This document shows positions 15,001-64,000 of a stretch of DNA of 64,000 nucleotides, piece by piece (position 1 is the first letter of the stretch; each line of letters starts with the position of its first letter). The stretch comes from the human T2T-CHM13v2.0 reference genome, Homo sapiens. The DNA lies in NCBI RefSeq assembly GCF_009914755.1, contig NC_060933.1, one strand, 5' to 3'. The notes under the pieces are model-generated. The model made no database searches. It worked only from the letters and a program-made list of their open reading frames with translations, and was not told where the DNA came from. A program made the translations under genes and the position numbers.

Positions 15001-15158
15001 TTTCAATCCATTCCCTTCCATTCCATTTCATTCCATTCCATTCCATTCCATTCCATTCCATGCCATTCCACTCGGGTTGATTCCATTACTTTCCATTCCA
15101 TTCTAGTTGAACCCATTCCATTCCATTCCATTCCATTCCATTCCATTCCATTGCACAC
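1..15158 (+). repeat. HSat3 orientation block 1 (CATTC on + strand)
   Basis: The + strand reads (CATTC)n until ...CATTGCACAC at 15149-15158. Confidence 0.97.
12000..15158 (+). repeat. Direct duplication of ~0.9 kb (12000-12920 and 14285-15158); second copy truncated by J1
   Basis: Private markers GAGGTGATT (12161/14444), CGTAGTATT (12561/14834), TAGTTGAACC (12861/15104). Confidence 0.85.
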
Positions 15159-15170
15159 GGAATGGAATGG
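15151..15170. other. Inversion junction J1 (CATTC to GGAAT), 2-bp GG microhomology
   Basis: Sequence is TTGCACAC-GG-AATGGAATGG. GG (15159-15160) fits both the canonical TTGCACACGGGTTC motif and the GGAAT unit. Confidence 0.93.
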
Positions 15171-22850: not shown

Positions 22851-25800
22851 GAATGGAATGGAATGGAATGGAATGGAATGGAATGCAATGCAATGGGATC
22901 AACCCGAGTGCAGGGGAATGGAATGGAATGGAATGCAATGGAATGGAATCAATCAACCCGAGTGCAATAGAATGAAGTGGAATGGAATGGAATGGAATGG
23001 AAAGTACCCGAATGGAAAGGAATATAATGGAGTGTAAGGGAATTAAAAAGAATCAATCCGAATGTAATGGAATGGAATGGAACAGAATGGAATGGAATGG
23101 AATGGAATGGAATGGAATGGAATGAAATGGAATGGCATGGAATGGAATGGAATCAACCCGAGTTCAATGGATTGGAATCAAATGGAATGGAATGGAATGG
23201 AATGGATTCAACCCGAATGGAATGGAAAGGAATGGAATAAACCCGAGTGAAATGGCATGGAAGGGAATGGAATGGAATGGAATGGTAAGGAATAGAATGG
23301 AATGGAACGAAATGGAATGGAATGGAATGGAATGGAATGGAATGCAATGGAATGGAATGAACCCGTGAGCAATGGAATGGAATGGAATGGAATGGAATGG
23401 AATGGAAGGGAATGGAATGGGTTCAATTCGAATGGAATGGAAAGGAATGGAATCAACCCGAGTGCAATGGCATGGAATGGAATGGAATGGAATGGAATGG
23501 ATTCAACCCGAATGGAATGGAAAGGAATGGAATAAACCCGAGTGGAATGGCATGGAATGGAGTGGAATGGAATGGAATGGAATGGAATGGAATGGAATGG
23601 AATTAACCCTAATAGAATGGAATGGAATGCAATGGAATGGAATGGAATGGAATTGAATGGAAGGGAATGGAATGGAATGGAATGGAATGGAATTAACACG
23701 AATAGAATGGAATGGAATGGAATGGAATGGAATGGAATGGAATCAACTCGATTTCAGTGGAATGGAATGGAATGGAATGGAATGGAATGGAAGGGAATGG
23801 AATGAAATTAACCCGAATAGAATGGAATGGAATGGAATGGAATGGAATGGAATGGAATGGTATGGAATAGAATGGAATGGAACTAAATGGAATGGAATGG
23901 AATGGAATGGAATGAAATGAAATGAACCCGTGTGCAATGGAATGGAATGGAATGGAATGGAATGGATGGAATGGAAATTAATAGAACGGAATCAACACGA
24001 GTGGAATGGAATGGAAAGGACTGGAATGGAATGGAATGGAATGGAATCAACTCGATTGTAATGGAATGGAATGGAATGGAATGGAATGGAATGGAATGGA
24101 ATGGAATCAACCCGAATGCAGGGGAATGGAATGGAATGGAATGCAATGGAATGGTATCATCCGGAATGGAATGGAATGGAATGGAATGCAAAGCAATGGA
24201 ATCAACTCGATTGCAATGGAATGGAATGGAATGGAAAGGAATACATTGGAATCAACCCGACTGGAATGGAATGGAAAGGACTGGAATGGAGTGGAATGGA
24301 ATGGAATGGAATGGAATGGAATGAACTTGATTGGAATGGAATGGAATGGAATGGAATGGAATGGAATGGAATTAACCCGAATAGAATGGAATGGAATGGA
24401 ATGGAACGGAACGGAATGGAATGGAATGGAATGGAATGGAATGGAATCAACCCGACTGCAGGGGAATGGAATGGAATGGAATGCAATGCAATGGATTCAA
24501 CTTGAATGGAATGGAAAGAATGGAATCAACACGAGTGGAATGGCATGGATTGGAATGGAATGGAATGGAATCAACCCGAGTACAGGGGAATGGAATGGAA
24601 TGGAATGCAATGGAATGGAATCATCCGTAATGGAATGGAAAGGAATGGAATGGAATGGAATGGAATGGAATGGAATGGAATGGAATGGAATCAACTCGAT
24701 TGCAATCGAATGGAATGGAATGGAATTAACCCGAATAGAATGGAATGGAATGGAATGGAACGGAACGGAATGGAATGGAATGGAATGGAATGGAATGGAA
24801 TGGAATGGAATTAACACGAATACAATGCAATGGAATGGAATGGAACGGAATGGAGTGGAATGGAATGGAATCAACCCGAGTGCAGGGGAATGGAATGGAA
24901 TGGAATGCAATGGAAGGGAATCATCCGGAATGGAATGGAATGGAATGGAATGCAAAGCAATGGAATCAACTCGATTGCAATGGAATGGAATGGAATGGAA
25001 AGGAATACATTGGAATCAACCCGAGTGGAAAGGAATGGAAAGGACTGGAATGGAGTGGAATGGAATGGAATGGAATGGAATGGAATGGAATGGAATGGAA
25101 TTAACCCGAATAGAAAGGAATGGAATGGAATGGAACGGAACGGAATGGAATGGAATGGAATGGAATGGAATGGAATGGAATGGAATCAACCCGACTGCAG
25201 GGGAATGGAATGGAATGGAATGCAATGGAATGGATTCAACTTGAATGGAATGGTAAGAATGGAATCAACACGAGTGGAATGGCATGGATTGGAATGGAAT
25301 GGAATGGAATCAACCCGAGTACAGTGGAATGGAATGGAATGGAATGCAATGGAATGGAATCATCCGTAATGGAATGGAAAGGAATGGAATGGAATGGAAT
25401 GGAATGGAATGGAATGGAATCAACTCGATTGAAATCGAATGGAATGGAATGGAGTTAACCCGAATAGAATGGAATGGAATGGAATGGAACGGAACGGAAC
25501 GGAAGGGAACGGAATGGAATGGAATGGAATGGAATGGAATGGAACGGAGAGGAATGGAATGGAATGGAATGGAATGGAATGGAATCAACGCGAGTGAAGG
25601 GGAATGGAATGGAATGGAATGCAATGGAATGGAATCTTCCGGAATGGAATGGAATGGAATGGAATGGAATGGAATGGAATGGAATGGAATAAACCCGAGT
25701 GCAATGGAATGGAGTGGAATGGAATGGAATGGAATGGAACAACCCGAATGGAATGGAGTGTAATGGAGACTAAGGGAGTTGAATAGAATCTATCCGAATG

Positions 25801-28800
25801 TAATGGAATGCAATGGAACGGAATGGAAGTGAATGGAATGGAATGGAATGGAATGCAATGGAATGGAATCAACCCGAGTGCAATGGAATGGAGAGGAATG
25901 GAATGGAATGCCATGGAAACTACCCGAATGGAATGGAATGTAATGGAGTGTAAGGGAATTGAATAGAATCAATCCGAATGTAATGGAATGGAATGGAACG
26001 GAATGGAATGGAATGGAATGGAATGGAATGCAATGGAATGGAATCAACCCGAGTGCAATCGAATGGAATCGAATGGAATGGAATGCAATGGAATGGATTC
26101 AACTTGAATGGAATGGAAAGAATGGAATCAACACGAGTGGAATGGCATGGATTGGAATGGAATGGAATGGAATCAACCCGAGTACAGGGGAATGGAATGG
26201 AATTTAATGCAATGGAATGGAATCATCCGTAATGGAATGGAAAGGAATGGAATGGAATGGAATGGAATGGAATGGAATCAACACGATTGCAATCGAATGG
26301 AATGGAATGGAATTAACCCGAATAGAATGGAATGGAATGGAATGGAAGAGAACGGAATGGAATGGAATGGAATGGAATGGAATGGAACGGAACGGAACGG
26401 AACGGAACGGAACGGAACGGAAAGGAATGGAATGGAATGGAATGGAATCAACGCGAGTGCAGGGGAATGGAATGGAATGGAATGCAATGGAATGGAATCT
26501 TCCGGAATGGAATGGAATGGAATGGAATGGAATGAAATGCAATGGATTCAACTCGATTGCAATGGAATGGAATAGAATGGAATGGAATGGAATGGAATGG
26601 AATGGAATTACCCCGAATAGAATGGAATGGAATGGAATGGAACGGAACGGAACGGAACGGAATGGAATGGAATGGAATGGAATGGAATGGAATGCAATGG
26701 TATGGAATCGAATGGAATGGTACGGAATAGAATGGAATGGAAAGAATTGTAATGGAATGGAATTGAATGGAATGGAATGGAATGGAATGGAATCAACGCG
26801 AGTGCAGGGGAATGTAATGGAACGGAATGCAATGGATTGGAATCATCCGGAATGGAATGGAATGGAATTGAATGGAATGGAATGGAATCAACCCGAGTGC
26901 AATGGAATGCAGTGGAATGGAATGGAATGGAATGGAACAACCCGAATGGAATGGAATGTAATGGAGAGTAAGGGAGTTGAATAGAATCAATCCGAATGTA
27001 ATGGAATGGAATGCAACGGAGTGGAATGGAATGGAATGGAATGGAATGGAATGGAATGCAAAGGAATGGAATCAACCCGAGTGCAATGGCATGGAATGGA
27101 ATGCAATGGAATGGAAGTTAATGGAATCAACTCCAGTGGAAAGGAATGGAATGGAATGGAAAGGAATGGAATGAAATCAAGTCGAGTGGAATGGAATGGA
27201 ATGGAATGGATTGGAATAGATTGCAACGGAATGAAATGGAATGGAATGGAATGGAATCAATCATTCCGAGTAGAATGGAAGGTAATGTAATGGAGTGGAA
27301 AGAAGGGAATGGAATCAACCCGATTGGAATGCAAGGCAATGGAATGGAATGGAAAGGAATGGAATGCAATCAACTCGATTGCAATGGAATGGAACGGAAT
27401 GGAATGGAATGGAAGGTAATGGAATCAACACGAGTGCAGGGGAATGGAATGGAATGGAATGCAATGGAATGGAATCATCCGGAATGGAATGGAATGGAAT
27501 GGAATCAACTCCATTGTAATGGAATGGAATGGAATGGAATGGAATAGAATGGAATGGAATTAACCCGAATAGAACGGAATGCAATAGAATGGAATGGAAC
27601 GGAACCGAATGGAGTGGAATGGAATGGAATGGAATCAACATGAGTGCAGGGGAATGGAATGGAATGGAATGCAATGGAATGGAATCATCCGGAATGGAAT
27701 GGAATGGAATGGAATGGAATCAAACCGAGTGCAATGGAATCGTGTGAAATGGAATGGAATGGAATGGAAACAACCTGAATGGATTGGAATATAATGGAGT
27801 GCAAGGGAATTGAATAGAATCAATCTGAATGTAATGAAATGGAATGGAACGGAATGGAATGGAATGGAATGGAATCGAATGGAATGGAATGGAATGGAAT
27901 CAACCCGAGTGCAATGGAATGGATTCGAATGGAATGGAATGGAGTGGAATGGATTCAACTTGAATGGAATGGAAAGAATGGAATCAACACGAGTGGAATG
28001 GCATGGAATGGAATGGAAAGGAATGGCGTGGAATGGAATGGAATGGTTCGGAATAGAATGGATTGGAACAAAATGGAATGGAATGGAATGGAATGGAATG
28101 GAATGGAATCAACGCGATTGAAGGGGAATGTAATGGAACGGAATGCAATGGAATGGAATCATCCGGAGTGGAATGGAATGGAATGGAATGGAATGGAATG
28201 GAATCAACCCGAGTGCAATGGAATGGAGTGGAATGGAATGGAATGGAATGGAACAACCCGAATAGAATGGAATGTAATGGAGAGTAAGGGAGTTGAATAG
28301 AATCAATCCGAATGGAATGGAATGTAATTGAGAGTAAGGGAGTTGAATAGAATCAATCCGAATGTAATGGAATGGATAGGAACGGAATAGAATTGAATGG
28401 AATGGAATGGAATGCAATGGAATGGAATCAACCCGAGTACAATGGAATGAAATGGAATGGAATGGAATGGAATGGAATGGAATGGAATGGAATGGAACGG
28501 AATGGAACGGAACGGAATGGAATGGAATGGAATGGAATGGAATGGAATGGAATGGAACGGAAAGGAATGGAATGGAATGGAATGGAATGGAATGGAATCA
28601 ACGCGAGTGCAGGGCAATGGAATGGAATGGAATGCAATGGAATGGAATCTTCCGGAATGGAATGGAATGGAATGGAATGGAATGGAATGGAATCAACCCG
28701 AGTGCAATGGAAAGGAGTGGAATGGAATGGAATGGAACAGCCCGAATGGAATGGAATGTAATGGAGAGTAAGGGAGTTGAATAGAATCAATCCGAATGTA

Positions 28801-31800
28801 AAGGAATGGAATGGAACGGAATGGAATGGAATGGAATGGAATGGAATGCAATGGAATGGAATCAACCCGAGTACAATGGAATGGAATGGAATGGAATGGA
28901 ATGGAATGGAATGGAATGGAATGGAATGAAATGGAATCAATCCGAGTGCAATGGAATAGAGAGGAATGGAATGGAAAGGAATGGAAACTACCCGAATGGA
29001 ATGGAATGTAATGGAGTGTAAGGGAATTGAATAGAATCAATCCGAATGGAATGGAATGGAATGGAACGGAATGTAATGTAATGGAATGGAATGGAATCAA
29101 CCCGAGTGCAGGGGAAACGAATGGAATGGAATGCAATGGAATGGAATGGAATGGAATGGAATGGAATCAACTCGATTGCAATCGAATGGAAAGGAAGGGA
29201 ATTAACCCGAATAGAATGGAATGGAATGGAATGGAACGGAACGGAACGGAATGGAATGGAATGGAATGGAATGGAATGGAAAGTATTGGAATGGAATGCA
29301 ATGGAAAGGAATGGAATGGAATGTAATGGAATGGAATGGAATGGAATCAACGCGAGTGCAGGGGAATGGAATGGAATCGAATTTAATGGAATGGAATGGA
29401 ATGGAATCAACCCGACTGTAGGGGAATGTAATGGAACTGAATGCAATGGAATGGAATCATCCGGAATGGAATGGAATGGAATGGAATGGAATGGAATGGA
29501 ATCAACCCAAGTACAGGGGAATGGAATGGAATGCAATGCAATGGAATGGAATCATCCGTAATGGAATGGAAATGAATGGAATGGAAAGGAATGGAATGGA
29601 ATGGAATGGAATGGAATGGAATGGAATCAACTCGATTGCAATCGAATGGAATGGAATGGAATTAACCCGAATAGAATGGAATGGAATGGAATGGAACGGA
29701 ACGGAATGGAATGGAATGGAATGGAATGGAATGGAACCGAACGGAACGGAATGGAATGGAATGGAATCAACGCGAGTGCAGGGGAAAGGAATGGAATGGA
29801 ATGCAATGGAAAGGAATCTTCCGGAATGGAATGGAATGGAATGGAATGCAATGGATTCAACTCGATTGCAATGGTATGGAGTAGAATGGAATGGAATGAA
29901 ATGGAATGGAATGGAATGGAATTAACCCGAATAGAATGGAATGGAATGGAACGGAATGGAACGGAACGGAACGGAACGGAATGGAATGGAATGGAATGGA
30001 ATGGAATTGAATGGAATGGAATGGTATGGAATGGAATGGAATGGAATGGAGTCAACGCGAGTGCAGGGGAATGTAATGGAACGGAATGCAATGGAATGGA
30101 ATCATCCGGAATGGAATGGAATGGAATGGAATGGAATGGAATGGAATGGAATGGAATCAACCCGAGTGCAATGGAATGGAGTGGAATGGAATGGAATGGA
30201 ATGGAACAACCCGAATGGAATGGAATGTAATGGAGAGTAAGGGAGTTGAATAGAATCAATCCGAATGTAATGGAATGGAAGGGAATGGAATGGAATGGAA
30301 TGGAATGGAATGGAATGGAATGGAATGCAAAGGAATGGAATCAACCCGAGTACAATGGAATGGAATGGAATGGAATGGAATGGAATGGAATGGAATGGAA
30401 TGGAATGGAATCCACCCGAGGGCAATGGAATGGAGAGGAATGGAATGGAATGGAATGGAAACTACCCGAATGGAATGGAATGTAATGGAGTGTAAGGGAA
30501 TTGAATAGAATCAATCCGAATGGAACGGAATGGAATGGAACGGAATGTAATGTAATGGAATGGAATGGAATCAACCCGAGTGCAGGGGAATGGAATGGAA
30601 TGGAATGCAATGGAATGGAATCATCCGGAATGGAATGTAATGGAATGCAATGGAATGGAATGGAATGGAATCAACCCGAGTGCAATGGAATGGAGTGAAA
30701 TGGAATGGAATGGAATCGAATGGAAACAACCAGAATGGATTGGAATATAATGGAGTGTAAGGGAATTGAATAGAATCAATCTGAATGTAATGAAATGGAA
30801 TGGAACGGAATGGAATGCAATGGAATGGAATGGAATGGAATGGAATGCAATGGAATGGAATCAACCCGAGTACAGGGGAATGGAATGGAATGGAATGCAA
30901 TGGAATGGAATCATCCGTAATGGAATGGAAAGCAATGGAATGGAATGGAATGGAATGGAATGGAATGGAATGGAATGGAATGGAATCAACTCGATTGCAA
31001 TCGAATGGAATGGAATGGAATTAACCCGAATAGAATGGAATGGAATGGAATGGAATGGAACGGAAAGGAATGGAATGGAACGGAATGGAATGGAATGGAA
31101 TGGAACGGAACGGAATGGAATGGAATGGAATTGAATGGAATGGAATGGAATCAACCCAACTGCAGGGGAATGGAATGGAATGGAATGCAATGGAATGGAA
31201 TCATGCGGAACGGAATGCAATGGAATGGAATGGAATCAACACGAGTGCAATGGAATGGAGTGGAATGGAATGGAATGGAATGGAATGGAACTACCCGAAT
31301 GGAATGGAATGTAATGGAGAGTAAGGGAGTTGAATAGAATCAAACCGAATGTAATGGAAAGGAATGGAAAGGAATGGAATGGAATGGAATGGAATGCAAT
31401 GGAATGGAATCAAACCGAGTACAATGGATTTGAATGGAATGGAATGGAATGGAATGGAATGGAATCAACACGAGTGCAATGGAATGGAGTGGAATGGAAT
31501 GGAATGGAATGGAACAACGCGAATGGAATGGAATGTAATGGAGAGTAAGGGAGTTGAATAGAAACAATCCGAATGTAATGGAATGGAACGGAATGGAATG
31601 GAAAGGAATGGAATGGAATGGAATGGAATGGAATGCAATGGAAGGGAATCAACCCGAGTACAATGGAATGGAATGGAATGGAATGGAATGGAATGGAATG
31701 GAATGGAAAGAATGGAATGGAATCAACCCGAGTGCAATGGAATGGAGAGGAATGGAATGGAATGGAATGGAAACTACCCGAATGGAATGGAATGTAATGG

Positions 31801-34800
31801 AGTGTAAGGGAATTGAATAGAATCAATCCAAATGGAATGGAATGGAATGGAACGGAATGTAAAGAATGGAATGGAATGGAATCAACGCGAGTGCAGGGGA
31901 ATGGAATGGAATGGAATGCAACGGAATGGAATCATCCGGAATGGAACGGAATGGAATGCAATGGAATGGAATGGAATGGAATCAACCCGAGTGCAATGGA
32001 ATGGAGTGAAATGGAATGGAATGGAATGGAAACAACCAGAATGGATTGGAATATAATGGAGTGTAAGTGAATTGAATAGAATCAATCTGAATGTAATAAA
32101 ATGGAATGGAACGGAATGGAATGGAATGGAATGGAATAGAATGGAATGGAATGGAATGCAATGGAATGGAATCAACCCGAGTGCAATCGAATGGAATCGA
32201 ATGGAATGGAATGCAATGGAATGGATTCAACTTGAATGGAATGGAAAGAATGGAATCAACACGAGTGGAATGGCATGGATTGGAATGGAATGGAATGGAA
32301 TCAACCCGAGTACAGGGGAATGGAATGGAATGGAATGCAATGGAATGGAATCATCCGTAATGGAATGGAAAGGAATGCAGTGGAATGGAATGGAATGGAA
32401 TGGAATCAACTCGATTGCAATCGAATGGAATGGAATGGAATTAACCCGAATAGAATGGAATGGAATGGAATGGAACGGAACGGAATGGAATGGAATGGAA
32501 TGGAATGGAATGCAACGGAACGGAACGGAATGGAATGGAATGGAATGGAATGGAATGGAATGGAATGGAATCAACGCGAGTGCAGGGGAATGGAATGGAA
32601 TGGAATGCAATGGAATGGAATCTTCCGGAATGGAATGGAATGGAATGGAATGGAATGGAATGGAATGGAATCAACCCGAGTGCAATGGAATGGAGTGGAA
32701 TGGAATGTAATGGAATGGAACAACCCGAATGGAATGGAATGTAATGGAGAGTAAGGGAGTTGAATAGAATCAATCCGAATGGAATGGAATGGAATGGAAC
32801 GGAATGGAATTGAATGGAATGGAATGGAATGCAATGGAATGGAATCAACCCGAGTGCAATGGAATGGAGAGGAATGGAATGGAATGGAATGGAAACTACC
32901 CGAATGGAATGGAATGTAATGGAGTGTAAGGGAATTGAATAGAATCAATCCGAATGTAATGGAATCGAATGGAACGGAATGGAATGGAATGGAATGGAAT
33001 GGAATGGAATGGAATGGAATGCAATGGAATGGAATCAACCCGAGTGCAATCGAATGGAATCGAATGGAATGGAATACAATGGAATGGATTCAACTTGAAT
33101 GGAATGGAAAGAATGCAATCAACACGAGTGGAATGGCATGGATTGGAATGGAATGGAATGGATCAACCCGAGTACAGGGGAATGGAATGGAATGGAATGC
33201 AATGGAATGGAATCATCCGTAATGGAATGGAAAGGAATGGAATGGAATGGAATGGAATGGAATGGAATGGAATGGAATCAACTCGATTGCAATCGAATGG
33301 AATGGAATGGAATTAACCCGAATAGAATGGAATGGAATGGAATGGAACGGAACGGAATGGAATGGAATGGAATGGAATGGAATGGAATGGAATGAACGCG
33401 AGTGCAGGGCAATTGAATGGAATGGAATGCAATGGAATGGAATCTTCCGGAATGGAATGGAATGGAATGGAATGGAATAGAATCAACTCGATTGCAATCG
33501 AATGGAATGGAATGGAATTAACCCGAATAGAATGGAATGGAATGGAATGGAACGGAACGTAATGGAATGGAATGGAATGGAATGGAATGGAATGGAACGG
33601 AACGGAATGGAATGGAATGGAATGGAATCAACGCGAGTGCAGGGGAATGGAATGGAATGGAATGCAATGGAATGGAATCTTCCGGAATGGAATGGAATGG
33701 AATGGAATGGAATGAAATGCAATGGGTTCAACTCGATTGCAATGGAATGGAACAGAATGGAATGGAATGGAATGGAATGGAATTAATTCGAATAGAATGG
33801 AATGGAATGGAATGGAACGGAATGGAACGGAATGGAATGTTATGGAATGGAATGGTATGGAATGGAATGGAATGGTACGGAATAGAATGGAATGGAAAGA
33901 ATTGTAAGGGAATGGAATTGAATGGAATGGAATGGAATGGAATGGAATCAACGCGAGTGCAGCGGAATCTAATGGAACGGAATGCAATGGAATGGAATCA
34001 TCCGCAATGGAATGGAATGGAATGGAATGGAATGGAATGGAATGGAATCAACCCGAGTGCAATGGAATGGAGTGGAATGGAATGGAATGGAACAACCCGA
34101 ATGGAATGGAATGTAGTGGAGAGTAAGGGAGTAGAATAGAATCAATCCGAATGTAATGGAATGGAATGCAACGGAATGGAATGGAATGGAATGGAATGGA
34201 ATGCAATGGAATTGAATCAACCCGAGTACAATGGAATGGAATGGAATGGAATGGAATGGAAGGGAATGGAATGGAATGGAATGATACGGAACAGAATGGA
34301 ATGGAACGAAATGGAATGGAATGGAATGGAATGGAATCGTTCCGAGTGGAATAGGATGGAATGTATTCGAGTGGAATGGAAACGAATGGTATCAACCAGA
34401 GTGGAATGGAAGGGAATGGAATGGAATGGAAACTAATAGAATGGAATCAACCCGAGTGGAATGGAATGGAAAGGACTGGAATGGAATGGAATGGAATGGA
34501 ATCAACTCGATTGTAATGGAATGGAATGGAATGGAATGGAATGGAATGGAATGGAATGGAATTAACCCGAATAAAATGGAATGGAATGGAATGGAACGGA
34601 ATGGAGTGGAATGGAATGGAATCAACCCGAGTGCAGGGGAATGGATTGGAATGGAATGCAATGGAATGGAATCTTCCGGAATGGAATGGAATGGAATGGA
34701 ATGCAAAGCAATGGAATCAACTCGATTGCAATGGAATGGAATGGAATGGAAAGGAGTACATTGGAATCAACCCGAGTGGAATGGAATGGAAAGGACTGGA

Positions 34801-37800: not shown

Positions 37801-38289
37801 AGGGAATTGAATAGAATCAATCCGAATGTAATGGAATGGAATGGAACGGAACGGAATGGAATGGAATGGAATGGAATTGAATGGAATGGAATGGAATGGA
37901 ATGCAAAGGAATGGAATCAACCCGAGTGCAATCGAATGGAATCGAATGGAATGGAATGCAATGGAATGGATTCAACTTGAATGGAATGGAAAGAATGGAA
38001 TCAACACGAGTGGAAGGGCATGGATTGGAATGCAATGGAATGGAATCAACCTGAGTACAGGGGAATGGAATGGAATGGAATGCAATGGAATGGAATCATC
38101 CGTAATGGAATGGAAAGGAATGGAATGGAATGGAATGGAATGGAATGGAATGGAATGGAATCAACTCGATTGCAATCGAATGGAATGGAATGGAATTAAC
38201 CCAAATAGAATGGAATGGAATGGAATGGAACGGAACGGAATGGAATGGAATGGAATCAACCCGAGTGCAGGGGAATGGAATGGAATGGA

Positions 38290-44200: not shown

Positions 44201-44830
44201 GAATGGAATGGAATGGAATGGAATGGAATGGAATGGAATCAACCCGACTGCAGGGGAATGGAATGGAATGGAATGCAAAGGAATGGATTCAACTTGAATG
44301 GAATGGAAAGAATGGAATCAACACGAGTGGAATGGCATGGATTGGAATGGAATGGAATGGAATCAACCCAAGTACAGGGGAATGGAATGGAATGGAATGC
44401 AATGGAATGGAATCATCCGTAATGGAATGGAAAGGAATGGAATGGAATGGAATGGAATGGAATGGAATGGAATGGAATCAACTCGATTGCAATCGAATGG
44501 AATGGAATGGAAATAACCCGAATAGAATGGAATGGAATGGAATGGAACGGAACGGAATGGAATGGAATGGAATGGAATGGAACGGAACGGAATGGAATGG
44601 AATGGAATGGAATGGAATGGAATGGAATCAACGCGAGTGCAGGGGAATGGAATGGAATGGAATGAAATGGAATGGAATCTTCCGGAATGGAATGGAATTG
44701 AATGGAATGGAATGGAATAGTATGGAATAAACCCGAGTGCAATGGAATGGAGTGGAATGGAATGGAATGGAATGGAACAACCCGAATGGAATGGAATGGA
44801 ATGGAGAGTAAGGGAGTTGAATAGAATCAA
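38290..44830 (-). repeat. Tandem duplication, unit ~3.15-3.45 kb (about 38290-41400 and 41435-44830)
   Basis: Collinear private markers: GATTGCAGTCGA (~38981/42125), AAGGAATCGAGTTG (~39333/42537), GAAGGGCATGG (~39670/42858), TCACCCCGAG (~40272/43630), CAACTTGATTGG (~40737/44180), TATGGAATAAACCC (~41268/44721). Confidence 0.8.
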
Positions 44831-49880: not shown

Positions 49881-49900
49881 ATGGAATGCACTCGGGTTGA
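49881..49900. other. Inversion junction J2 (GGAAT to CATTC), 4-bp palindromic TGCA microhomology
   Basis: Sequence is ATGGAA-TGCA-CTCGGGTTGA. TGCA (49887-49890) fits both GGAATGCA(ATGG) and (CAT)TGCACTCGGG. Confidence 0.93.
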
Positions 49901-52900: not shown

Positions 52901-54790
52901 AAATTCCATTGCAATCCATTCCATTCCATTCCATTGCATTCCATTCCATTCCGTTCCATTCCATTCCATTACATTCGCATTGATTCTATTCAATTCCTTT
53001 ACACTCCATTACATTCCATTCCATTCGGGTAGTTTCCATTCCATTCCATTCCATTCCTCTCCATTCCATTGCACTCGGGTTGATTCCATTCCATTGCATT
53101 CCATTCCATTCCATTCCATTCCATTCCATTCCATTCCATTACGGATGATTCCATTCCATTGCATTCCATTCCATTCCATTCCCCTATACTCGGGTTGATT
53201 CCATTCCATTCCATTCAAATCCATGCCATTCCACTCGTGTTGATTCCATTCTTTCCATTCCATTCAAGTTGAATCCATTCCATTACATTCCATTCCATTC
53301 GATTCCATTCTATTGCACTCGGGTTGATTCCATTCCATGGCATTCCATTCCATTCCATTCCATTCCATTCCATTCCGTTCCATTCCATTTCATTACATTC
53401 AGATTGATTCTATTCAATTCCCTTACACTCCATTATATTCCAATCCATTCTGGTTGTCTCCATTCCATTCCATTCAATTTCACTCCATTCCATTGCACTC
53501 GGGTTGATTCCATTCCATTGCATTCCATTCCATTCCATTCCATTCCATTCCATTCCATTCCATTCCATTCCGTTCCATTCCATTTCATTACATTCAGATT
53601 GATTCTATTGAATTCCCTTACACTCCATTATATTCCAATCCATTCTGGTTGTCTCCATTCCATTCCATTCCATTTCACTCCATTCCATTGCACTCGGGTT
53701 GATTCCATTCCATTCCATTCCATTGCATTCCATTCCATTCCATTCCGGATGATTCCCTTCCATTGCATTCCATTCCTTTCCATTCCCCTGCACTCGGGTT
53801 GATTCCATTCCATTCCATTCCATTACATTCCGTTCCATTCCATTCCATTCCATTCGGATTGATTCTATTCAATTCCCTTACACTCCATTACATTCCATTC
53901 CATTCGGGTAGTTTCCATTCCATTCCATTCCATTCCTCTCCATTCCATTGCACTCGGGTTGATTCCATTCCATTCCATTCCATTCCATTCCATTCCATTC
54001 CATTCCATTCCATTACATTCCATTCCATTCCATTCCATTCCGTTCCATTGTACTCGGGTTGATTCCATTCCATTGCATTCCATTCCATTCCATTCCATTC
54101 CATTCCATTCCATTCCATTCCATTCCGTTCCATTCCATTACATTCGGATTGATTCTGTTCAACTCCCTTACTCTCCATTACATTTCATTCCATTTGGGTT
54201 GTTCCATTCCATTCCATTCCATTCCACTCCATTCCATTGCGCTCGGGTTGATTCCATTCCATTCTATTCCATTCCATTCCATTCCATTCCATTCCATTCC
54301 ATTCGGATGATTCCATTCCATTGCATTCCGTTCCATTACATTCCCCTGCACTCGGGTTGATTCCATTCCATTCCATTCCATTCCATTCGATTCCATTCCA
54401 TTCCAATTCTTTCCATTCCATTCTATTCCGTACCATTCCATTCCATTCCATACAATTCCATTCCATTCCATTCCACTCCGTTCCGTTCCGTTCCGTTCTG
54501 TTCCGTTCCATTCCATTCCATTCCATTCTATTCGGTTTAATTCCATTCCATTCCATTCCATTCCATTCCATTCTTTTCCATTCCATTGCAATCGAGTTGA
54601 ATCCATTGCATTCCATTCTATTCCATTCCATTCCATTTCATTCAATTCCGGAAGATTCCATTCCATTGCATTCCATTCCATTCCATTCCATTACATTCCA
54701 TTCCTTTCCATTCCATTGTACTCGGGTTGATTCCATTCCATTGCATTCCATTCCATTCCATTCCATTCCATTCCGTTCCATTCCATTGCA

Positions 54791-57399
54791 TTACATTCGG
54801 ATTGATTCTTTTCAACTCCCTTACTCTCCATTACATTCCATTCCATTCGGGTTGTTCCATTCCATTCCTTTCCATTCCACTCCATTCCATTGCACTCGGG
54901 TTGATTCCATTCCATTCCATTGCATTCCATTCCGGATGATTCCATTCCATTGCATTCTGTTCCATTACGTTCCCCTGCACTCGGGTTGATTCCATTCCAT
55001 TCCTTTCCATTCCATTCGATTCCATTCCATTCCCCTGCACTCGCCTTGATTCCATTCCATTCCATTCCGTTCCAATGCATTCCATTCCATTCCTTTCCGT
55101 TCCATTCCATTCCATTCCGTTCCGTTCCATTCCATTCCATTCCATTCTATTCGGGTTAATTCCATTCCATTCCATTCGATTGCAATCGAGTTGATTCCAT
55201 TCCATTCCATTCCATTCCATTCCAGTCCTTTCCATTCCTTTCCATTCCATTACTGATGATTCCATTCCATTGCATTCCATTCCATTCCATTCCCCTGTAT
55301 TCGGGTTGATTCCATTCCATTCCATTCCAGTCCATGCCATTCCACTCGTGTAGATTCCATTCTTTCCTTTCCATTCAAGTTGAATCCATTCCATTGCATT
55401 CCATTCCATTTGATTCCATTCGATTGCACTCGGGTTGATTCCATTCCATTGCATTCCATTCCATTCCATTCCATTCCATTCCCTTCCATTCCACTCTGGT
55501 TGATTCCATTCCTTTCCATTCCACTCGAATACATTCCCTCCTATTCCACTCGGAATGATTCCATTCCATTCCATTCCATTCCATTCCATTCCATTCCATT
55601 CCATTCCATTCCATTTCGTTCCATTCCATTCTATTCCGTATCATTCCATTCCGTTCCATTCCATTCCATTCCATTCCATTCCATTCCATTCCATTGTACT
55701 CGGGTTGATTCAATTCCTTTGCATTCCATTCCATTCCATTCCATTCCATTCCATTCCATTCCGTTGCATTCCATTCCATTACATTTGGATTGATTCTATT
55801 CAACTTCCTTACTCTCCATTACATTCCTTTCCATTCGGGTTGTTCCATTCCATTCCATTCCATTCCATTCCATTCCATTCCATTCCATTCCTTTCCGTTC
55901 CATTCCATTCCATTCCCTTCCATTCCGTTCCGTTCCATTCCATTCTATTCCATTCTATTCGGGTTAATTCCATTCCATTCCATTCGATTGCAATCGAGTT
56001 TATTCCTTTCCATTCCATTCCATTCCATTCCATTCCAGTCCTTTTCATTCCTTTCCATTCCATTACTGATGATTCCATTCCATGGCATTCCATTCCATTC
56101 CATTCCCCTGTACTCGGGTTGATTCCATTCCATTCCATTCCAATCCATGCCATTCCACTCGTGTTGATTCCATTATTTCCATTCCATTCAAGTTGAATCC
56201 ATTCCATTGCATTCCATTGCATTCGATTCCATTCGATTGCACTCGGGTTGATTCCATTCCAATGCATTCCATTCCATTCCATTCCATTCCATTCCATTCC
56301 ATTCCATTCCGTTCCATTCCATTTCATTAGATTCAGATTGATGCTATTCAATTCCCTTACTCTCCATTATATTCCAATCCATTCTGGTAGTTTCCATTCC
56401 ATTCCATTCCATTTCACTCCATTCCATTGCACTCGGGTTGATTCCATTCCATTCCATTCCATTGCATTCCATTCCATTCCATTCCGGATGATTCCATTCC
56501 ATTGCATTCCATTCCATTCCATTCCCCTGCACTCGTGTTGATTCCATTCCATTCCATTCCATTCCATTCCATTCCATTCCATTCCATTCCATTCGGATTG
56601 ATTCTATTCAATTCCCTTACACTCCATTACATTCCATTCCATTCCGGAAGTTTCCATTCCATTCCATTCCATTCCTCTCCATTCCATTGCACTCGGGTTG
56701 ATTCCATTCCATTGCATTCCATTCCATTCCATTCCATTCCATTCCATTCCATTCCATTCCATTCCGTTCCATTGTACTCGGGTTGATTCCATTCCATTGC
56801 ATTCCATTCCATTCCATTGCATTCCATTCCATTCCATTCCCCTGCACTCGAGTTGATTCCATTCCATTCCATTCCATTCCATTCCATTCAATTCCATTCC
56901 ATTACAATTCGTTCCATTCCATTCTAATCCGTACCATTCCATTCCATTCCATTCCATTCCATACCATTCCATTCCATTCCATTCCATTCCATTCCGTTCC
57001 ATTCCGTTCCATTCCATTCCTTTCCATTCTATTCGGATTAATTCCATTCCATTCCATTCCATTCCATTCTATTCCATTCCATTGCAATCGAGTTGAATCC
57101 ATTGCATTTCATTCCATTCCATTCCATTCCATTCCATTCCAGAAGATTCCATTCCATTGCATTCCATTCCATTCCATTCCCCTGCACTCGCGTGGATTCC
57201 ATTCCATTCCATTCCATTCCATTCCATTCCATTCCGTTCCGTTCCATTCCATTCCATTCCATTCAATTCCATTCCGTTCCGTTCCATTCCATTCCATTCC
57301 ATTCTATTCGGGTTAATTCCATTCCATTCCATTCGACTGCAATCGAGTTGATTCCATTCCATTCCATTCCATTCCATTCCATTCCATTCCTTTCCATTC
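54791..57399 (+). repeat. Near-identical duplication, copy 1 (partner 61402-64000)
   Basis: Shares many private variants with the partner, in the same order (CATTACGTTCCCC, CTCGCCTTG, GTGTAGATT, ACATTTGGATT, GATGCTATT, CCGGAAGTTTCC, CGCGTGGATT). Identical ORF translations at offsets 6611 and 6616, near-identical at 6601. Confidence 0.92.
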
Positions 57400-60300
57400 C
57401 ATTTCGGATGATTCCATTCCATTGCATTCCATTCCATTCCATTCCCCTGTACTCAGGTTGATTCTATTCCATTCCATTCCAATCCATGCCATTCCACTCG
57501 TGTTGATTCCATTCTTTCCATTCCATTCAAGTTTAATCCATTCCATTGCATTCCATTCCATTCGATTCCATTCGATTGCACTCGGGTTGATTCCATTCCA
57601 TTGCATTCCATTCCATTCCATTCCATTCCATTCCATTCCGTTCCATTCCATTCCATTACATTCGGATTGATTCTATTCAATTCCCTTACACTCCATTACA
57701 TTCCATTCCATTCGGGTAGTTTCCATTCCATTCCATTCCATTCCTCTCCATTCCATTGCACTCGGGTTGATTCCATTCCATTGCATTCCATTCCATTCCA
57801 TTCAATTCCATTCCGTTCCATTCCATTCCATTACATTCGGATTGATTCTATTCAACTCCCTTACTCTCCATTACATTCCATTCCATTCGGGTTGTTCCAT
57901 TCCATTCCATTCCATTCCACTCCATTGCATTGCACTCGGGTTGATTCCATTCAATTCCATTCCATTCCATTCCATTCCATTCCATTCCGGAAGATTCCAT
58001 TCCATTGCATTCCATTCCATTCCATTCCCCTGCACTCGCGTTGATTCCATTCCATTCCATTCTATTCCATTCCATTCCCTTCCTTTCCGTTCCATTCCAT
58101 TCCATTCCATTCCATTCCATTCCATTCCATTCTATTCGGGTTAATTCCATTCCATTCCATTCGATTGCAATCGAGTTGATTCCATTCCATTCCATTCCAT
58201 TCCATTCCATTCCTTTCCTTTCCATTCCATTACGGATGATTCCATTCCATTGCATTCCATTCCACTCCATTCCCCTGTACTCGGGTTGATTCCATTCCAT
58301 TCCATTCCAATCCATGCCATTTCACTCGTGTTGATTCCATTCTTTCCATTCCATTCAAGTTGAATCCATTCCATTGCATTCCATTCCATTCGATTCCATT
58401 CGATTGCACTCGGGTTGATTCCATTCCATTGCATTCCATTCCATTCCATTCCATTCCATTCCATTCCATTCCGTTCCATTCCATTCCATTACATTCGGAT
58501 TGATTCTATTCAATTCCCTTACACTCCATTACATTCCATTCCATTCGGGTAGTTTCCATTCCATTCCATTCCATTCCTCTCCATTCCATTGCACTCGGGT
58601 TGATTCCATTCCATTGCATTCCATTCCATTCCATTCAATTCCATTCCGTTCCATTCCATTCCATTACATTCAGATTGATTCTATTCAACTCCCTTACTCT
58701 CCATTACATTCCATTCCATTCGGGTTGTTCCATTCCATTCCATTCCATTCCACTCCATTCCATTGCACTCGGGTTTATTCCATTCCATTCCATTCCATTC
58801 CATTCCATTCCATTCCGGAAGATTCCATTCCATTGCATTCCATTCCATTCCATTCCCCTGCACTCGCTTTGATTCCATTCCATACCGTTCCATTCCATTT
58901 TATTCCTTTCCGTTCCATTCCATTCCATTCCATTCCATTCCAATCCATTCCATTCCGTTCCGTTCCGTTCCATTCCATTCCATTCCATTCTATTCGGGTT
59001 AATTCCATTCCATTCCATTCGATTGCAATCGAGTTGATTCCATTCCATTCCATTCCATTCCATTCCATTCCATTCCTTTCCATTCCATTACGGATGATTC
59101 CATTCCATTGCATTCCATTCCATTCCATTCCCCTGTACTCGGTTTGATTCCATTCCATTCCATTCCAATCCATGCCATTCCACTCGTGTTGATTCCATTC
59201 TTTCCATTCCATTCAAGTTGAATCCATTCCATTGCATTCCATTCCATTCCATTCCCCTGCAGTCGGGTTGTTTCCATTCCATTCCATTCTATTCCATTCC
59301 ATTCCATTCCATTCCATTACATTACATTACATTACATTACATTCCGTTCCGTTGTACTCGGGTTGATTCCATTCCATTGCATTCCATTCCATTCCATTCC
59401 ATTCCATTCCATTCCATTCCGTTCCATTCCATTACATTCGGATTGATTCTATTTAACTCCCTTACTCTCCATTACATTCCATTCCATTCGGGTTGTTCCA
59501 TTCCATTCCATTCCATTCCACTCCATTCCATTGCGCTCGGGTTGATTCCATTCCATTCCATTCCATTCCATTCCATTCCATTCCATTACATTCCGGATGA
59601 TTCTATTCCATTGCATTCCGTTCCATTACATTCCCCTGCACTCGGGTTGATTCCATTCCATTCCATTCCATTCCATTCGATAGCATTCCATTCCAATTCT
59701 TTCCATTCCATTCTATTCCGTACCATTCCATTCCATTCCATACAATTCCATTCCATTCCATTCCACTCCGTTCCGTTCCGTTCCGTTCTGTTCCGTTCCA
59801 TTCCATTCCATTCCATTCTATTCGGTTTAATTCCATTCCATTCCATTCCATGCCATTCCATTCTATTCCATTCTATTGCAATCGAGTTGAATCCATTGCA
59901 TTCCATTCCATTCCATTCCATTGCATTCCATTCCATTCCATTCCGGAAGATTCCATTCCATTGCATTCCATTCCATTCCATTCCATTCCATTCCATTCCA
60001 TTCCATTCCATTCCATTCCATTCCATTGTACTCGGGTTGATTCCATTCCATTGCATTCCATTCCATTCCATTCCATTCCATTCCATTCTGTTCCATTCCA
60101 TTCGGATTGATTCTTTTCAACTCCCTTACTCTCCATTACATTCCATTCCATTCGGGTTGTTCCATACCATTCCATTCCATTCCACTCCATTCCATTGCAC
60201 TCGGGTTGATTCCATTCCATTCCATTCCATTCCATTCCGGATGATTCCATTCCATTACATTCCGTTCCATTACATTCCCCTGCACTCGCGTTGATTCCAT

Positions 60301-61401
60301 TCCATTCCATTCCATTCCTTTCCGTTCCATTCCATTCCATTCCATTCCATTCCATTCCGTTCCGTTCCATTCCATTCCGTTCCACTCTATTCGGGTTAAT
60401 TCCATTCCATTCCATTCGATTGAAATCGAGTTGATTCCATTCCATTCCATTCCATTCCATTCCATTCCATTCCATTCCAGTCCTTTCCATTCCTTTCCAT
60501 TCCATTACTGATGATTCCATTCCATTGCATTCCATTCCATTCCATTCCCCTGTACTCGGGTTGATTCCATTCCATTCCATTCCAATCCATGCCATTCCAC
60601 TCGTGTTGATTCCATTCTTTCCTTTCCATTCAAGTTGAATCCATTCCATTGCATTCCATTGCATTCGATTCCATTCGATTGCACTCGGGTTGATTCCATT
60701 CCATTACATTCCATTCCATTCCATTCCATGCCATTCCGTTCCATTCCATTTCATTACATTCAGATTGATTCTTTTCAATTCCCTTAAACTCCATTATATT
60801 CCAATCCATTCTGGTTGTTTCCATTCCATTCCATTTCACTCCATTCCATTGCACTCGGGTTGATTCCATTCCATTCCATTCCATTGCATTCCATTCCATT
60901 CCATTCCGGATGATTCCATTCCATTGCATTCCGTTCCATTACATTCCCCTGCACTCGCGTTGATTCCATTCCATTCCATTCCATTCCATTCAATTATTCA
61001 ATTACATTCCATTACAATTCGTTCCATTCCATTCTATTCCGTACCATTCCATTCCATTCCATACCATTCCATTCCATTCCATTCCATTCCATTCCATTCC
61101 ATTCCATTCCCCTGCACTCGGGTTGATTCCATTCCATTCCATTCCATTACATTCCGTTCCATTCCATTCCATTCCATTCGGATTGATTCTATTCAATTCC
61201 CTTACACTCCATTACATTCCATTCCATTCGGGTAGTTTCCATTCCATAACATTCCATTCCTCTCCATTCCATTGCACTCGGGTTGATTCCATTCCTTTCC
61301 ATTCTATTCCATTCCATTACATTACATTCCATTCCATTCCGTTCCATTGTACTCGGGTTGATTCCATTCCATTGCATTCCATTCCATTCCGTTCCATTCC
61401 A

Positions 61402-64000
61402 TTACATTCGGATTGATTCTTTTCAACTCCCTTACTCTCCATTACATTCCATTCCATTCGGGTTGTTCCATTCCATTCCTTTCCATTCCACTCCATTCCA
61501 TTGCACTCGGGTTGATTCCATTCCATTCCATTGCATTCCATTCCGGATGATTCCATTCCATTGCATTCTGTTCCATTACGTTCCCCTGCACTCGGGTTGA
61601 TTCCATTCCATTCCTTTCCATTCCATTCGATTCCATTCCATTCCCCTGCACTCGCCTTGATTCCATTCCATTCCATTCCGTTCCAATGCATTCCATTCCA
61701 TTCCTTTCCGTTCCATTCCATTCCATTCCGTTCCGTTCCATTCCATTCCATTCCATTCTATTCGGGTTAATTCCATTCCATTCCATTCGATTGCAATCGA
61801 GTTGATTCCATTCCATTCCATTCCATTCCATTCCAGTCCTTTCCATTCCTTTCCATTCCATTACTGATGATTCCATTCCATTGCATTCCATTCCATTCCA
61901 TTCCCCTGTATTCGGGTTGATTCCATTCCATTCCATTCCAGTCCATGCCATTCCACTCGTGTAGATTCCATTCTTTCCTTTCCATTCAAGTTGAATCCAT
62001 TCCATTGCATTCCATTCCATTTGATTCCATTCGATTGCACTCGGGTTGATTCCATTCCATTGCATTCCATTCCATTCCATTCCATTCCATTCCCTTCCAT
62101 TCCACTCTGGTTGATTCCATTCCTTTCCATTCCACTCGAATACATTCCCTCCTATTCCACTCGGAATGATTCCATTCCATTCCATTCCATTCCATTCCAT
62201 TCCATTCCATTCCATTCCATTCCATTCCATTTCGTTCCATTCCATTCTATTCCGTATCATTCCATTCCGTTCCATTCCATTCCATTCCATTCCATTCCAT
62301 TCCATTCCATTGTACTCGGGTTGATTCAATTCCTTTGCATTCCATTCCATTCCATTCCATTCCATTCCATTCCATTCCGTTGCATTCCATTCCATTACAT
62401 TTGGATTGATTCTATTCAACTTCCTTACTCTCCATTACATTCCTTTCCATTCGGGTTGTTCCATTCCATTCCATTCCATTCCATTCCATTCCATTCCATT
62501 CCATTCCTTTCCGTTCCATTCCATTCCATTCCCTTCCATTCCGTTCCGTTCCATTCCATTCTATTCCATTCTATTCGGGTTAATTCCATTCCATTCCATT
62601 CGATTGCAATCGAGTTTATTCCTTTCCATTCCATTCCATTCCATTCCATTCCAGTCCTTTTCATTCCTTTCCATTCCATTACTGATGATTCCATTCCATG
62701 GCATTCCATTCCATTCCATTCCCCTGTACTCGGGTTGATTCCATTCCATTCCATTCCAATCCATGCCATTCCACTCGTGTTGATTCCATTATTTCCATTC
62801 CATTCAAGTTGAATCCATTCCATTGCATTCCATTGCATTCGATTCCATTCGATTGCACTCGGGTTGATTCCATTCCAATGCATTCCATTCCATTCCATTC
62901 CATTCCATTCCATTCCATTCCATTCCGTTCCATTCCATTTCATTAGATTCAGATTGATGCTATTAAATTCCCTTACTCTCCATTATATTCCAATCCATTC
63001 TGGTAGTTTCCATTCCATTCCATTCCATTTCACTCCATTCCATTGCACTCGGGTTGATTCCATTCCATTCCATTCCATTGCATTCCATTCCATTCCATTC
63101 CGGATGATTCCATTCCATTGCATTCCATTCCATTCCATTCCCCTGCACTCGTGTTGATTCCATTCCATTCCATTCCATTCCATTCCATTCCATTCCATTC
63201 CATTCGGATTGATTCTATTCAATTCCCTTACACTCCATTACATTCCATTCCATTCCGGAAGTTTCCATTCCATTCCATTCCATTCCTCTCCATTCCATTG
63301 CACTCGGGTTGATTCCATTCCATTCCATTCCATTCCATTCCATTCCATTCCATTCCATTCCATTCCGTTCCATTGTACTCGGGTTGATTCCATTCCATTG
63401 CATTCCATTCCATTCCATTGCATTCCATTCCATTCCATTCCCCTGCACTCGAGTTGATTCCATTCCATTCCATTCCATTCCATTCCATTCAATTCCATTC
63501 CATTACAATTCGTTCCATTCCATTCTAATCCGTACCATTCCATTCCATTCCATTCCATTCCATACCATTCCATTCCATTCCATTCCATTCCATTCCGTTC
63601 AATTCCGTTCCATTCCATTCCTTTCCATTCTATTCGGATTAATTCCATTCCATTCCATTCCATTCCATTCTATTCCATTCCATTGCAATCGAGTTGAATC
63701 CATTGCATTTCATTCCATTCCATTCCATTCCATTCCATTCCAGAAGATTCCATTCCATTGCATTCCATTCCATTCCATTCCCCTGCACTCGCGTGGATTC
63801 CATTCCATTCCATTGCATTCCATTCCATTCCATTCCGTTCCGTTCCATTCCATTCCATTCCATTCAATTCCATTCCGTTCCGTTCCATTCCATTCCATTC
63901 CATTCTATTCGGTTTAATTCCATTCCATTCCATTCGACTGCAATCGAGTTGATTCCATTCCATTCCATTCCATTCCATTCCATTCCATTCCTTTCCATTC
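61402..64000 (+). repeat. Near-identical duplication, copy 2 (runs off window end)
   Basis: See 54791-57399. By eye it differs by about four substitutions plus whole-pentamer indels. Confidence 0.92.

What the first reader, a model, noticed from the sequence alone, without database searches (positions are those of the whole stretch)
25631..63751. Perfect heat-shock elements embedded in only one of two adjacent HSat3 sub-families
Seen: the spacer GGAATCTTCCGGAAT parses exactly as n-GAA-nn-TTC-nn-GAA-n. About 28 perfect sites occur in 25.6-63.8 kb (roughly one per 1.4 kb), and I found none in 1-23.9 kb. Domain A carries only the one-mismatch sister GGAATCATCCGGAAT (ATC for TTC). Because the site sits in pentamer register, flanking GGAAT units supply further GAA half-sites at 10-bp spacing. 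Established: HSF1 trimers bind inverted nGAAn arrays, and HSF1 binds and transcribes 9q12 SatIII to form nuclear stress bodies. Inference: a single A-to-T change, amplified by satellite turnover, could turn one sub-family into a stress-inducible HSF1 platform with a sharp sequence-defined edge inside the array. I cannot verify whether this motif has already been described.
Basis: partly seen in the sequence, partly recalled or inferred. Interest (0 to 1): 0.8.

Follow-up and report, generated by a model that had tools for sequence, protein, structure and literature searches.

The report
Canonical HSF1 sites in chr9 HSat3
The heat-shock-factor binding sites are real and come from one amplified single-base variant that fills most of the giant chromosome 9 satellite array, but the uneven spread of such sites and of HSF1 binding within these satellite arrays is already reported.

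Summary
The window has 28 perfect three-unit heat-shock elements (GAAnnTTCnnGAA), all between 25,632 and 63,750 and none before; 23 are the exact 15-mer GGAATCTTCCGGAAT. Domain A (1 to about 23,800) has no inverted nGAAn pair at all.

All sites are copies of one derived A-to-T variant of a conserved block. TTC sits on the CAACGCGAG haplotype in 60 of 62 scored copies. The 15-mer occurs 12,700 times in T2T-CHM13, with none on chromosomes 1-8. Of 25 spaced samples across the chr9 array, 21 carry it, 3 are HSE-free A-type and 1 is a mosaic. So the HSE-bearing form is the bulk of the array and domain A is a minority patch type. Both lie within coordinates labelled as one HSat3 B5 array.

The HSF1-platform reading is likely but was not tested here. 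A 2024/25 preprint already reports HSF1 motifs confined to sub-regions of HSat3 arrays, with heat-shock HSF1 ChIP-seq following motif density. My searches did not find the exact 15-mer, its copy number or its ATC sister (20,563 copies) in print.

The abundance and the sharp edge are ordinary satellite turnover: 145 other 15-mers are equally B-private.

The parts
1..15155 (-). A-type HSat3 with ATTCC on the + strand. HSE-free; holds 8 copies of the ATC sister (445-10,467).
15156..23800 (+). A-type HSat3 with GGAAT on the + strand. HSE-free, no ATC sister, rich in the marker GGAATGGCATGGAAT.
23544..24154 (+). A-to-B transition zone, running from the last dense A marker to the first B-type block. 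There is no strand change here.
23801..49890 (+). B-type HSat3 (GGAAT strand) with 19 perfect trimeric HSEs.
49891..64000 (-). B-type HSat3 (ATTCC on +) with 9 perfect trimeric HSEs. Contains a direct duplication of about 6.6 kb.
25631..25645 (+). First copy of GGAATCTTCCGGAAT (gGAAt cTTCc gGAAt).
32572..32656 (+). Representative 85-nt block carrying the HSE: CAACGCGAGTGCAGGGG, then a pentamer run, GCAAT, and GGAATCTTCCGGAAT. There are 11 identical copies in the window.
24917..24931 (+). Example of the ATC sister GGAATCATCCGGAAT in the B domain (8 of 9 core bases).
63738..63750 (-). Last HSE, the variant GAATCTTCTGGAA. The CpG has changed to TpG but the site is still a perfect HSE. It is the 6.6-kb duplicate of the site at 57,137.

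Best explanation
The 28 sites are copies of one derived variant (ATC to TTC) of a conserved block of about 60-85 bp in the chromosome 9 HSat3 (B5) array. The change turns gGAAt-cATCc-gGAAt into a canonical three-unit heat-shock element.

The variant was spread by the kb-scale duplications that build the array, and it now occurs about 12,700 times, essentially all on chr9. The array is a mosaic. B-type sequence makes up most of the sampled array (73 of 92 2-kb bins) and carries one HSE per 1.4-2 kb. A-type patches (11 of 92 bins, plus 5 mixed and 3 unclassified) carry none.

On heat shock, HSF1 trimers most likely dock on these sites, one DNA-binding domain per unit. That concentrates HSF1 on 9q12, drives transcription of GGAAU-rich RNA and seeds nuclear stress bodies.

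Shown here: the sequence, the counts, the linkage and the mosaic. Inferred from the literature: HSF1 occupancy and its preference for TTC over ATC. The abundance of the site and the sharp edge need no selection; they follow from descent within a satellite.
For: Perfect trimer in 28 of 28 sites, with no other inverted nGAAn pair anywhere in the window.

The site meets published auxiliary preferences (Feng 2021 passages):
- A pyrimidine-purine step between TTC and the following GAA: CG in 26 and TG in 2 of 28.
- A non-T base 5' of each GAA: G for all three units in the 23 exact 15-mers.

Single origin: TTC is on CAACGCGAG in 60 of 62 scored copies; ATC is on C (62), G (35) and A (8) backgrounds.

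Genome: 12,700 copies, first at C9:49,162,019, none on C1-C8 on either strand. The density in 184 kb of spaced chr9 samples extrapolates to about 12,400 (Poisson 95% 9,900-15,400).

GGAATNTTCNGGAAT totals 14,004, so 91% of all pentamer-flanked HSEs are this one 15-mer; the 100 listed hits on C1-C7 are scattered single sites.

The 15-mer is 17% of all 76,189 perfect trimers in the genome; the reversed-pattern control gives 43,994.

Mosaic: 21 B-type, 3 A-type and 1 mixed of 25 samples. A-type samples have 0 inverted dimers.

Literature:
- HSF1 motifs lie in sub-regions of HSat3 arrays and heat-shock HSF1 ChIP-seq is enriched where motif density is high (passages and the Fig. 2b legend of PMC11526998).
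- Putative HSEs at 9q12 are noted as an unpublished observation.
- Canonical HSEs in Yq12 SatIII are bound by HSF1 in ChIP.
Against: No binding data were analysed here.

The region-level match of ChIP signal to motif density cannot separate the TTC site from the other features private to B-type sequence (145 15-mers in this window), nor from mappability differences.

HSF1 shifts the 9q12 clone pHuR98 in vitro although its NGAAN units are not arranged as a canonical HSE. HSF1 and HSF2 DNA-binding domains were co-crystallised with head-to-tail SatIII repeats.

Heat-induced reads were reported across the entirety of the chr9 array.

The ATC sister keeps the guanine contacted by the conserved arginine, so the TTC/ATC contrast may be quantitative rather than all-or-none.

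The CpG inside TTCCGGAA and the heterochromatin state could mask sites.

Matches on contigs after C9 were never listed, so a minority of the 12,700 could lie elsewhere.
Confidence: 0.72

Rival explanations
1. HSF1 is recruited to 9q12 mainly by the ubiquitous head-to-tail GGAAT repeats, through many weak sites, unusual DNA structure or condensate formation. On this view the TTC sites add little, and A-type and B-type sequence would be bound alike.
For: EMSA shift of pHuR98 despite a non-canonical arrangement of its units, with the authors suggesting secondary structure. Co-crystals of HSF DNA-binding domains with head-to-tail SatIII repeats. Heat-induced transcripts reported across the whole chr9 array.
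Against: The pHuR98 shift needed more HSF1 than a consensus HSE (above 12.5 ng against above 3 ng) and was competed by HSE. GGAAT repeats are common to all HSat3 arrays, yet 9q12 and Yq12 are the primary targets. HSF1 ChIP-seq is reported to follow HSF1-motif density in sub-regions, unlike the evenly spread TEAD signal. A neighbouring GGAAT-rich array at chr9:48.7 Mb has no inverted pair.
Confidence: 0.15
2. The relevant protein is an ETS-family factor rather than HSF1. The same A-to-T change creates CCGGAAG on the opposite strand, an ETS core, and the sister gives CCGGATG.
For: CCGGAAG occurs 25 times in B and 0 times in A, all at the HSE sites. The ETS core motif is recalled from memory, not taken from a tool.
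Against: The full recalled core CCGGAAGT is met at only 2 of 28 sites. The HSat3 motif screen found ETS motifs not enriched apart from one fusion motif. The CpG in the core would be methylated in heterochromatin; that ETS binding is methylation-sensitive is recalled.
Confidence: 0.05
3. The TTC variant was amplified because HSF1 binding is advantageous, i.e. by selection for a stress platform rather than by neutral hitch-hiking in satellite turnover.
For: It is the only route to an inverted nGAAn pair seen in this array. It is among the three commonest forms of the 15-mer. The two primary HSF1 targets, 9q12 and Yq12, both carry perfect HSEs.
Against: The non-HSE variant GGAATCATCCGTAAT is equally abundant (25 against 23 in the window; 79 against 83 in samples). 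145 other B-private 15-mers exist. A position-by-position look at block copies gave no usable signal of constraint.
Confidence: 0.15

Closest known systems
HSF1-motif-dense sub-regions of HSat3 arrays (Franklin et al., bioRxiv 2024/25, PMC11526998; I read passages and the Fig. 2b legend)
   Same: The same assembly and the same claim in outline: HSF1 motifs are confined to sub-regions of HSat3 arrays, and heat-shock HSF1 ChIP-seq (MCF7) is enriched where motifs are dense.
   Different: In the passages I read, the preprint gives no site sequence, copy number, sister site or kb-scale A/B mosaic. I could not see the figure or its supplements, so which array is shown is unknown to me.
Canonical HSEs in the Yq12 DYZ1 SatIII unit (Penin et al. 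2021, PMC7889540; passages)
   Same: Perfect HSEs are interspersed in an HSat3-type satellite that is a primary HSF1 target.
   Different: Four HSEs per 3,564 bp (1.1 per kb) as reported there. Here there are 0.70 per kb in B-type sequence and about 0.53 per kb array-wide. The Y sites are not the pentamer-flanked 15-mer, which accounts for 91% of GGAATNTTCNGGAAT.
Promoter HSEs of heat-shock genes (e.g. HSP70; as described)
   Same: Three alternately inverted nGAAn units, a pyrimidine-purine step in the tail-to-tail pair, and a purine 5' of GAA.
   Different: The site is repeated about 12,700 times inside heterochromatic satellite. It is flanked by same-direction GAA units rather than by further alternating units, and no promoter context is defined.
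Head-to-tail SatIII repeat binding by the HSF1/HSF2 DNA-binding domain (Neudegger 2016 and Jaeger 2016, as cited in Feng 2021)
   Same: The same satellite and the same protein domain.
   Different: Those structures use direct GGAAT repeats. The site here is an inverted, canonical trimer site.

Membership tests
Canonical heat-shock element (HSF trimer site) | At least three contiguous, alternately inverted nGAAn units | tested here: met
   28 of 28 sites match GAANNTTCNNGAA. Domain A has 0.
Canonical heat-shock element (HSF trimer site) | Pyrimidine-purine step between TTC and the following GAA, and no T directly 5' of GAA (auxiliary preferences, Feng 2021) | tested here: met
   The step is CG in 26 and TG in 2 of 28. 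In the 23 exact 15-mers all three units read gGAA on their own strand. The 5' base of the outer unit in the other 5 was not tabulated.
Canonical heat-shock element (HSF trimer site) | Occupied by HSF1 after heat shock | not testable with these tools
   Only region-level published evidence is available. No read data are on hand.
Canonical heat-shock element (HSF trimer site) | Confers heat-inducible transcription | not testable with these tools
   Array-level induction is reported. Nothing is available at the level of single sites.
HSat3 subfamily B5 (chr9) | GGAAT-pentamer satellite with CAACCCGAGT-type interruptions | tested here: met
   About 100-120 pentamers per kb throughout. CAACCCGAGT occurs 10-17 times per 4 kb in both domains.
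HSat3 subfamily B5 (chr9) | Lies in the array annotated B5 | tested here: met
   The window is chr9:62.06-62.13 Mb. A figure legend labels chr9:52,732,572-72,971,764 as hSat3_9_3(B5). This rests on coordinates only; I did not see the annotation file.
HSat3 subfamily B5 (chr9) | Subfamily-specific 24-mers (Altemose 2014) | not tested
   The k-mer library is not on hand.
   The domains differ in many k-mers: 145 B-private and 16 A-private 15-mers with at least 15 copies. They share the conserved block, lie in one labelled B5 interval and interleave at kb scale elsewhere (L027).
ETS class-I site | Core CCGGAAGT (recalled motif) | tested here: not met
   CCGGAAG is present at 25 of 28 sites, but the full CCGGAAGT at only 2 of 28.

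The most novel reading that the evidence does not exclude
One A-to-T substitution in a conserved 15-mer is the whole sequence basis of HSF1 targeting to 9q12. About 12,700 TTC copies would be bound, while the 20,563 ATC sisters and a similar number of GTAAT sisters would not. The largest human satellite array would then be a kb-scale mosaic of HSF1-competent (most of it) and HSF1-blind (a minority) patches. Differences between people or cell lines in TTC copy number would set nuclear-stress-body capacity and the 9q12-versus-Yq12 preference.
Probability: 0.3. Interest if true: 0.55.

Novelty: already known. Interest (0 to 1): 0.3.

Why it matters
HSF1 binding to 9q12 SatIII and the nuclear stress bodies it forms are textbook. 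A preprint already says that HSF1 motifs and ChIP signal sit in sub-regions of HSat3 arrays.

This check adds base-level detail:
- The site is one 15-mer, present about 12,700 times, or about 14,600 perfect trimers by extrapolation.
- That is roughly a sixth of all perfect trimeric HSEs in the genome.
- It differs by one base from an even commoner sister (20,563 copies).
- It is absent from interspersed A-type patches.

The TTC/ATC pair also gives a mapping-free k-mer test. It can separate canonical-HSE binding from binding to direct GGAAT repeats in existing ChIP data.

Tried and rejected
A 48-kb request was granted, so the distal 54-76 Mb is covered by only eleven 4-kb samples.
- Matches on contigs after C9 are never listed by the genome search, so chr9 exclusivity rests on three things: C1-C8 being empty, scattered singles on C1-C7 for the looser pattern and the density extrapolation.
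- A test for constraint on the HSE core among block copies mixed two block types and gave no usable signal; I dropped it.
- The window shows no clean higher-order period, only many spacings of 0.8-3.4 kb and one 6.6-kb duplication.
- The 49.9-kb strand flip is not a simple palindrome.
- Exact-string literature searches for the 10- to 13-mers found no satellite or HSF1 paper. The single 13-mer hit is a Cas12a coding sequence. A search for block strings returned SatIII probe and primer papers only.
- The Science version of the centromere paper was not held, so I used its preprint.
- I did not run a position-weight-matrix scan because no matrix is on hand. I did not examine chrY or the acrocentric arrays.
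Full report
**Observation**

A scan for GAANNTTCNNGAA on both strands finds 28 sites, against 2.6 +/- 1.7 in 100 dinucleotide shuffles. All lie between 25,632 and 63,750. Twenty-three are the exact 15-mer GGAATCTTCCGGAAT; the other five are one-base variants that remain perfect HSEs.

With the A/B divide set at 23,800, domain A has no perfect site and no two-unit inverted pair (GAAnnTTC or TTCnnGAA) either. Domain B has 28 of each, all within the 28 trimers.

The exact spacer count is 23 rather than about 28, and domain B carries both forms.

**Anatomy of the window**

The pentamer strand flips twice, near 15,155 and near 49,890. Neither flip coincides with the A/B edge.

The edge lies within one orientation, between the last dense A marker (GGAATGGCATGGAAT at 23,544) and the first B-type block at about 24,100.

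Every TTC or ATC site sits at the same place in a conserved block: CAAC[G/C]CGAGTGCAGGGG, a pentamer run, GCAAT, GGAAT, then GGAATC[T/A]TCCGGAAT.

I scored this block in the window plus 184 kb of chr9 samples. TTC is on the CAACGCGAG form in 60 of 62 copies. ATC is found on C (62), G (35) and A (8) forms and in both domains. By parsimony ATC is the older state and TTC arose once. One 85-nt TTC block is present in 11 identical copies in the window.

The 15-mer has three abundant forms:

| Form | Window | Samples |
|---|---|---|
| GGAATCATCCGGAAT (ATC) | 36 | 121 |
| GGAATCATCCGTAAT | 25 | 79 |
| GGAATCTTCCGGAAT (TTC) | 23 | 83 |

The second form is also private to B. In all, 145 canonical 15-mers with at least 15 copies in B are absent from A. 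Abundance and B-privacy are therefore ordinary consequences of descent in a satellite. The binomial P of 2.2e-6 overstates the evidence because the copies are not independent.

**Whole genome**

The window's assembly is held (24 contigs, 3.117 Gb), and the window is C9:62,062,001-62,126,000.

- The TTC 15-mer occurs 12,700 times (6,460 forward, 6,240 reverse). The reversed control gives 3.
- Listings are ordered by contig. The first hits are C9:49,755,937 on + and C9:49,162,019 on -, so contigs 1-8 have none.
- The ATC sister occurs 20,563 times.
- All forms within one mismatch of ATC total 57,140.
- GGAATNTTCNGGAAT totals 14,004, so the one 15-mer is 91% of pentamer-flanked HSEs. The 100 listed hits on C1-C7 are scattered single sites.
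- All perfect trimers in the genome number 76,189, against 43,994 for the reversed control. The chr9 15-mer alone is 17% of them.

**Along the array**

I fetched 20 x 10 kb at 300-kb steps from 47.5 to 53.2 Mb. I then fetched 11 x 4 kb at 2-Mb steps from 54 to 76 Mb, plus 4 kb just upstream of the window.

Twenty-five of the spaced samples lie in the GGAAT array (49.3-76.0 Mb). Their make-up is:

- 21 carry the TTC 15-mer.
- 3 are pure A-type, rich in GGAATGGCATGGAAT, with no CAACGCGAGT or only one and no inverted pair. These are at 51.4, 52.3 and 76.0 Mb.
- 1, at 52.9 Mb, is an A-B-A mosaic within 10 kb.

By 2-kb bins the split is 73 B, 11 A, 5 mixed and 3 unclassified of 92. The 4 kb upstream of the window is A-type.

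Densities in the 184 kb are 0.45 TTC 15-mers and 0.53 perfect trimers per kb. Over 27.4-27.6 Mb this extrapolates to about 12,400 (Poisson 95% 9,900-15,400) and about 14,600. The first figure matches the genome total, so nearly all copies are on chr9.

A separate GGAAT-rich array at 48.7 Mb has neither form of the block and no inverted pair.

The window lies inside the interval that a published figure legend labels hSat3_9_3(B5). Domains A and B are therefore variants within one annotated sub-family, and B is the bulk form.

**Quality of the site**

According to passages of Feng et al. 2021:

- The guanine of GAA is the most conserved base and takes the main arginine contact.
- The TTC-to-GAA step is usually pyrimidine-purine.
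- A purine or C, but not T, is favoured 5' of GAA.

The site reads gGAAt-cTTCc-gGAAt. The step is CG (26) or TG (2), and all three units are gGAA on their own strand in the 23 exact copies.

Outside the trimer the neighbouring units all point the same way. They read GAA GAA CAA GAA [GAA TTC GAA] GAA GAA GAA GAA in 22 of 28 sites. There are in-phase GAA units 10 and 20 bp downstream, but no extended alternating array.

The sister keeps the key guanine (gGATg on the lower strand), so it may retain some affinity. That is my inference.

The A-to-T change also creates CCGGAAG on the lower strand (25 in B, 0 in A).

**What is in print**

- Jolly et al. 2002 showed HSF1 binding to the 9q12 clone pHuR98. 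It was weaker than to a consensus HSE, and the authors noted that the clone's NGAAN units are not arranged canonically (passages).
- Reviews speak of HSE-like sequences scattered in HSat3.
- A 2022 review mentions putative HSEs at 9q12 as an unpublished observation and states that the number of sites is unknown.
- Penin et al. 2021 found four perfect HSEs in the 3,564-bp Yq12 unit and showed HSF1 ChIP there.
- Structural work used head-to-tail SatIII repeats.
- Franklin et al. (preprint, 2024/25) mapped JASPAR motifs and heat-shock HSF1 ChIP-seq to this same assembly. They state that HSF1 motifs are enriched in sub-regions of HSat3 arrays and that ChIP signal is enriched where motif density is high (passages and legend only, figure and supplements not seen).
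- Heat-induced RNA maps across the chr9 array.
- Searches for the exact strings and five topic searches found no paper giving this 15-mer, its count or the TTC/ATC contrast.

**Mechanism and rivals**

The best-supported reading is that these are the canonical HSF1 trimer sites of 9q12. They were created once and spread by array turnover, with A-type patches lacking them.

Against it stand four points:

- No binding data were analysed here.
- The region-level ChIP correlation is confounded by every other B-private feature and by mappability.
- There is evidence that HSF1 can also bind direct repeats.
- The sister may well be a weaker site rather than a non-site.

The rivals are listed with their tests: binding to direct repeats, an ETS-family site, and selection rather than hitch-hiking.

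**Verdict**

In outline it is already published. The increment is the base-level identity, the counts, the mosaic and a simple k-mer test.

Noticed in passing
window 15,140-15,170 and 49,880-49,900: Two strand switches of the pentamer array: ATTCC to GGAAT near 15,155, and GGAAT to ATTCC near 49,890. Neither coincides with the A/B edge. Strand switches in HSat arrays are described in the centromere-maps preprint.
   Followed up: partly
window 49,900-64,000: A direct duplication of about 6.6 kb: 40-mer spacings of 6,616, 6,611 and 6,601 account for more than 1,300 k-mers. It duplicates two variant HSEs (56,642/63,253 and 57,137/63,738).
   Followed up: partly
window 24,617-59,087: A third abundant form of the 15-mer, GGAATCATCCGTAAT: 25 copies, all in domain B, as common as the TTC form. 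It matches only 7 of 9 HSE core bases.
   Followed up: partly
whole genome: Perfect trimeric HSEs are strand-asymmetric genome-wide: 45,122 forward against 31,067 reverse, with the control symmetric at about 22,000 each. This points to another large, strand-biased repeat source of about 14,000 sites, possibly the Yq12 unit with four HSEs reported. I did not examine it.
   Followed up: no
window, domains A and B: CpG density is lower in A (19.9 per kb) than in B (25.8 per kb), and CCGG is 0.55 against 1.47 per kb. Exact 40-mer recurrences per base are about half as frequent in A as in B. This fits A being the older, less recently homogenised layer.
   Followed up: no
L013 (chr9:48,700,001-48,710,000): A separate GGAAT/ATTCC-rich array of mixed strand, proximal to the main array. 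It has CAACCCGAGT but none of the ATC/TTC block and no inverted nGAAn pair.
   Followed up: no
L027 (chr9:52,900,001-52,910,000): An A-B-A mosaic within 10 kb: B markers and three TTC sites at 3.2-5.8 kb, flanked by A-marker-rich sequence. A/B switches therefore occur at a scale of a few kb.
   Followed up: partly
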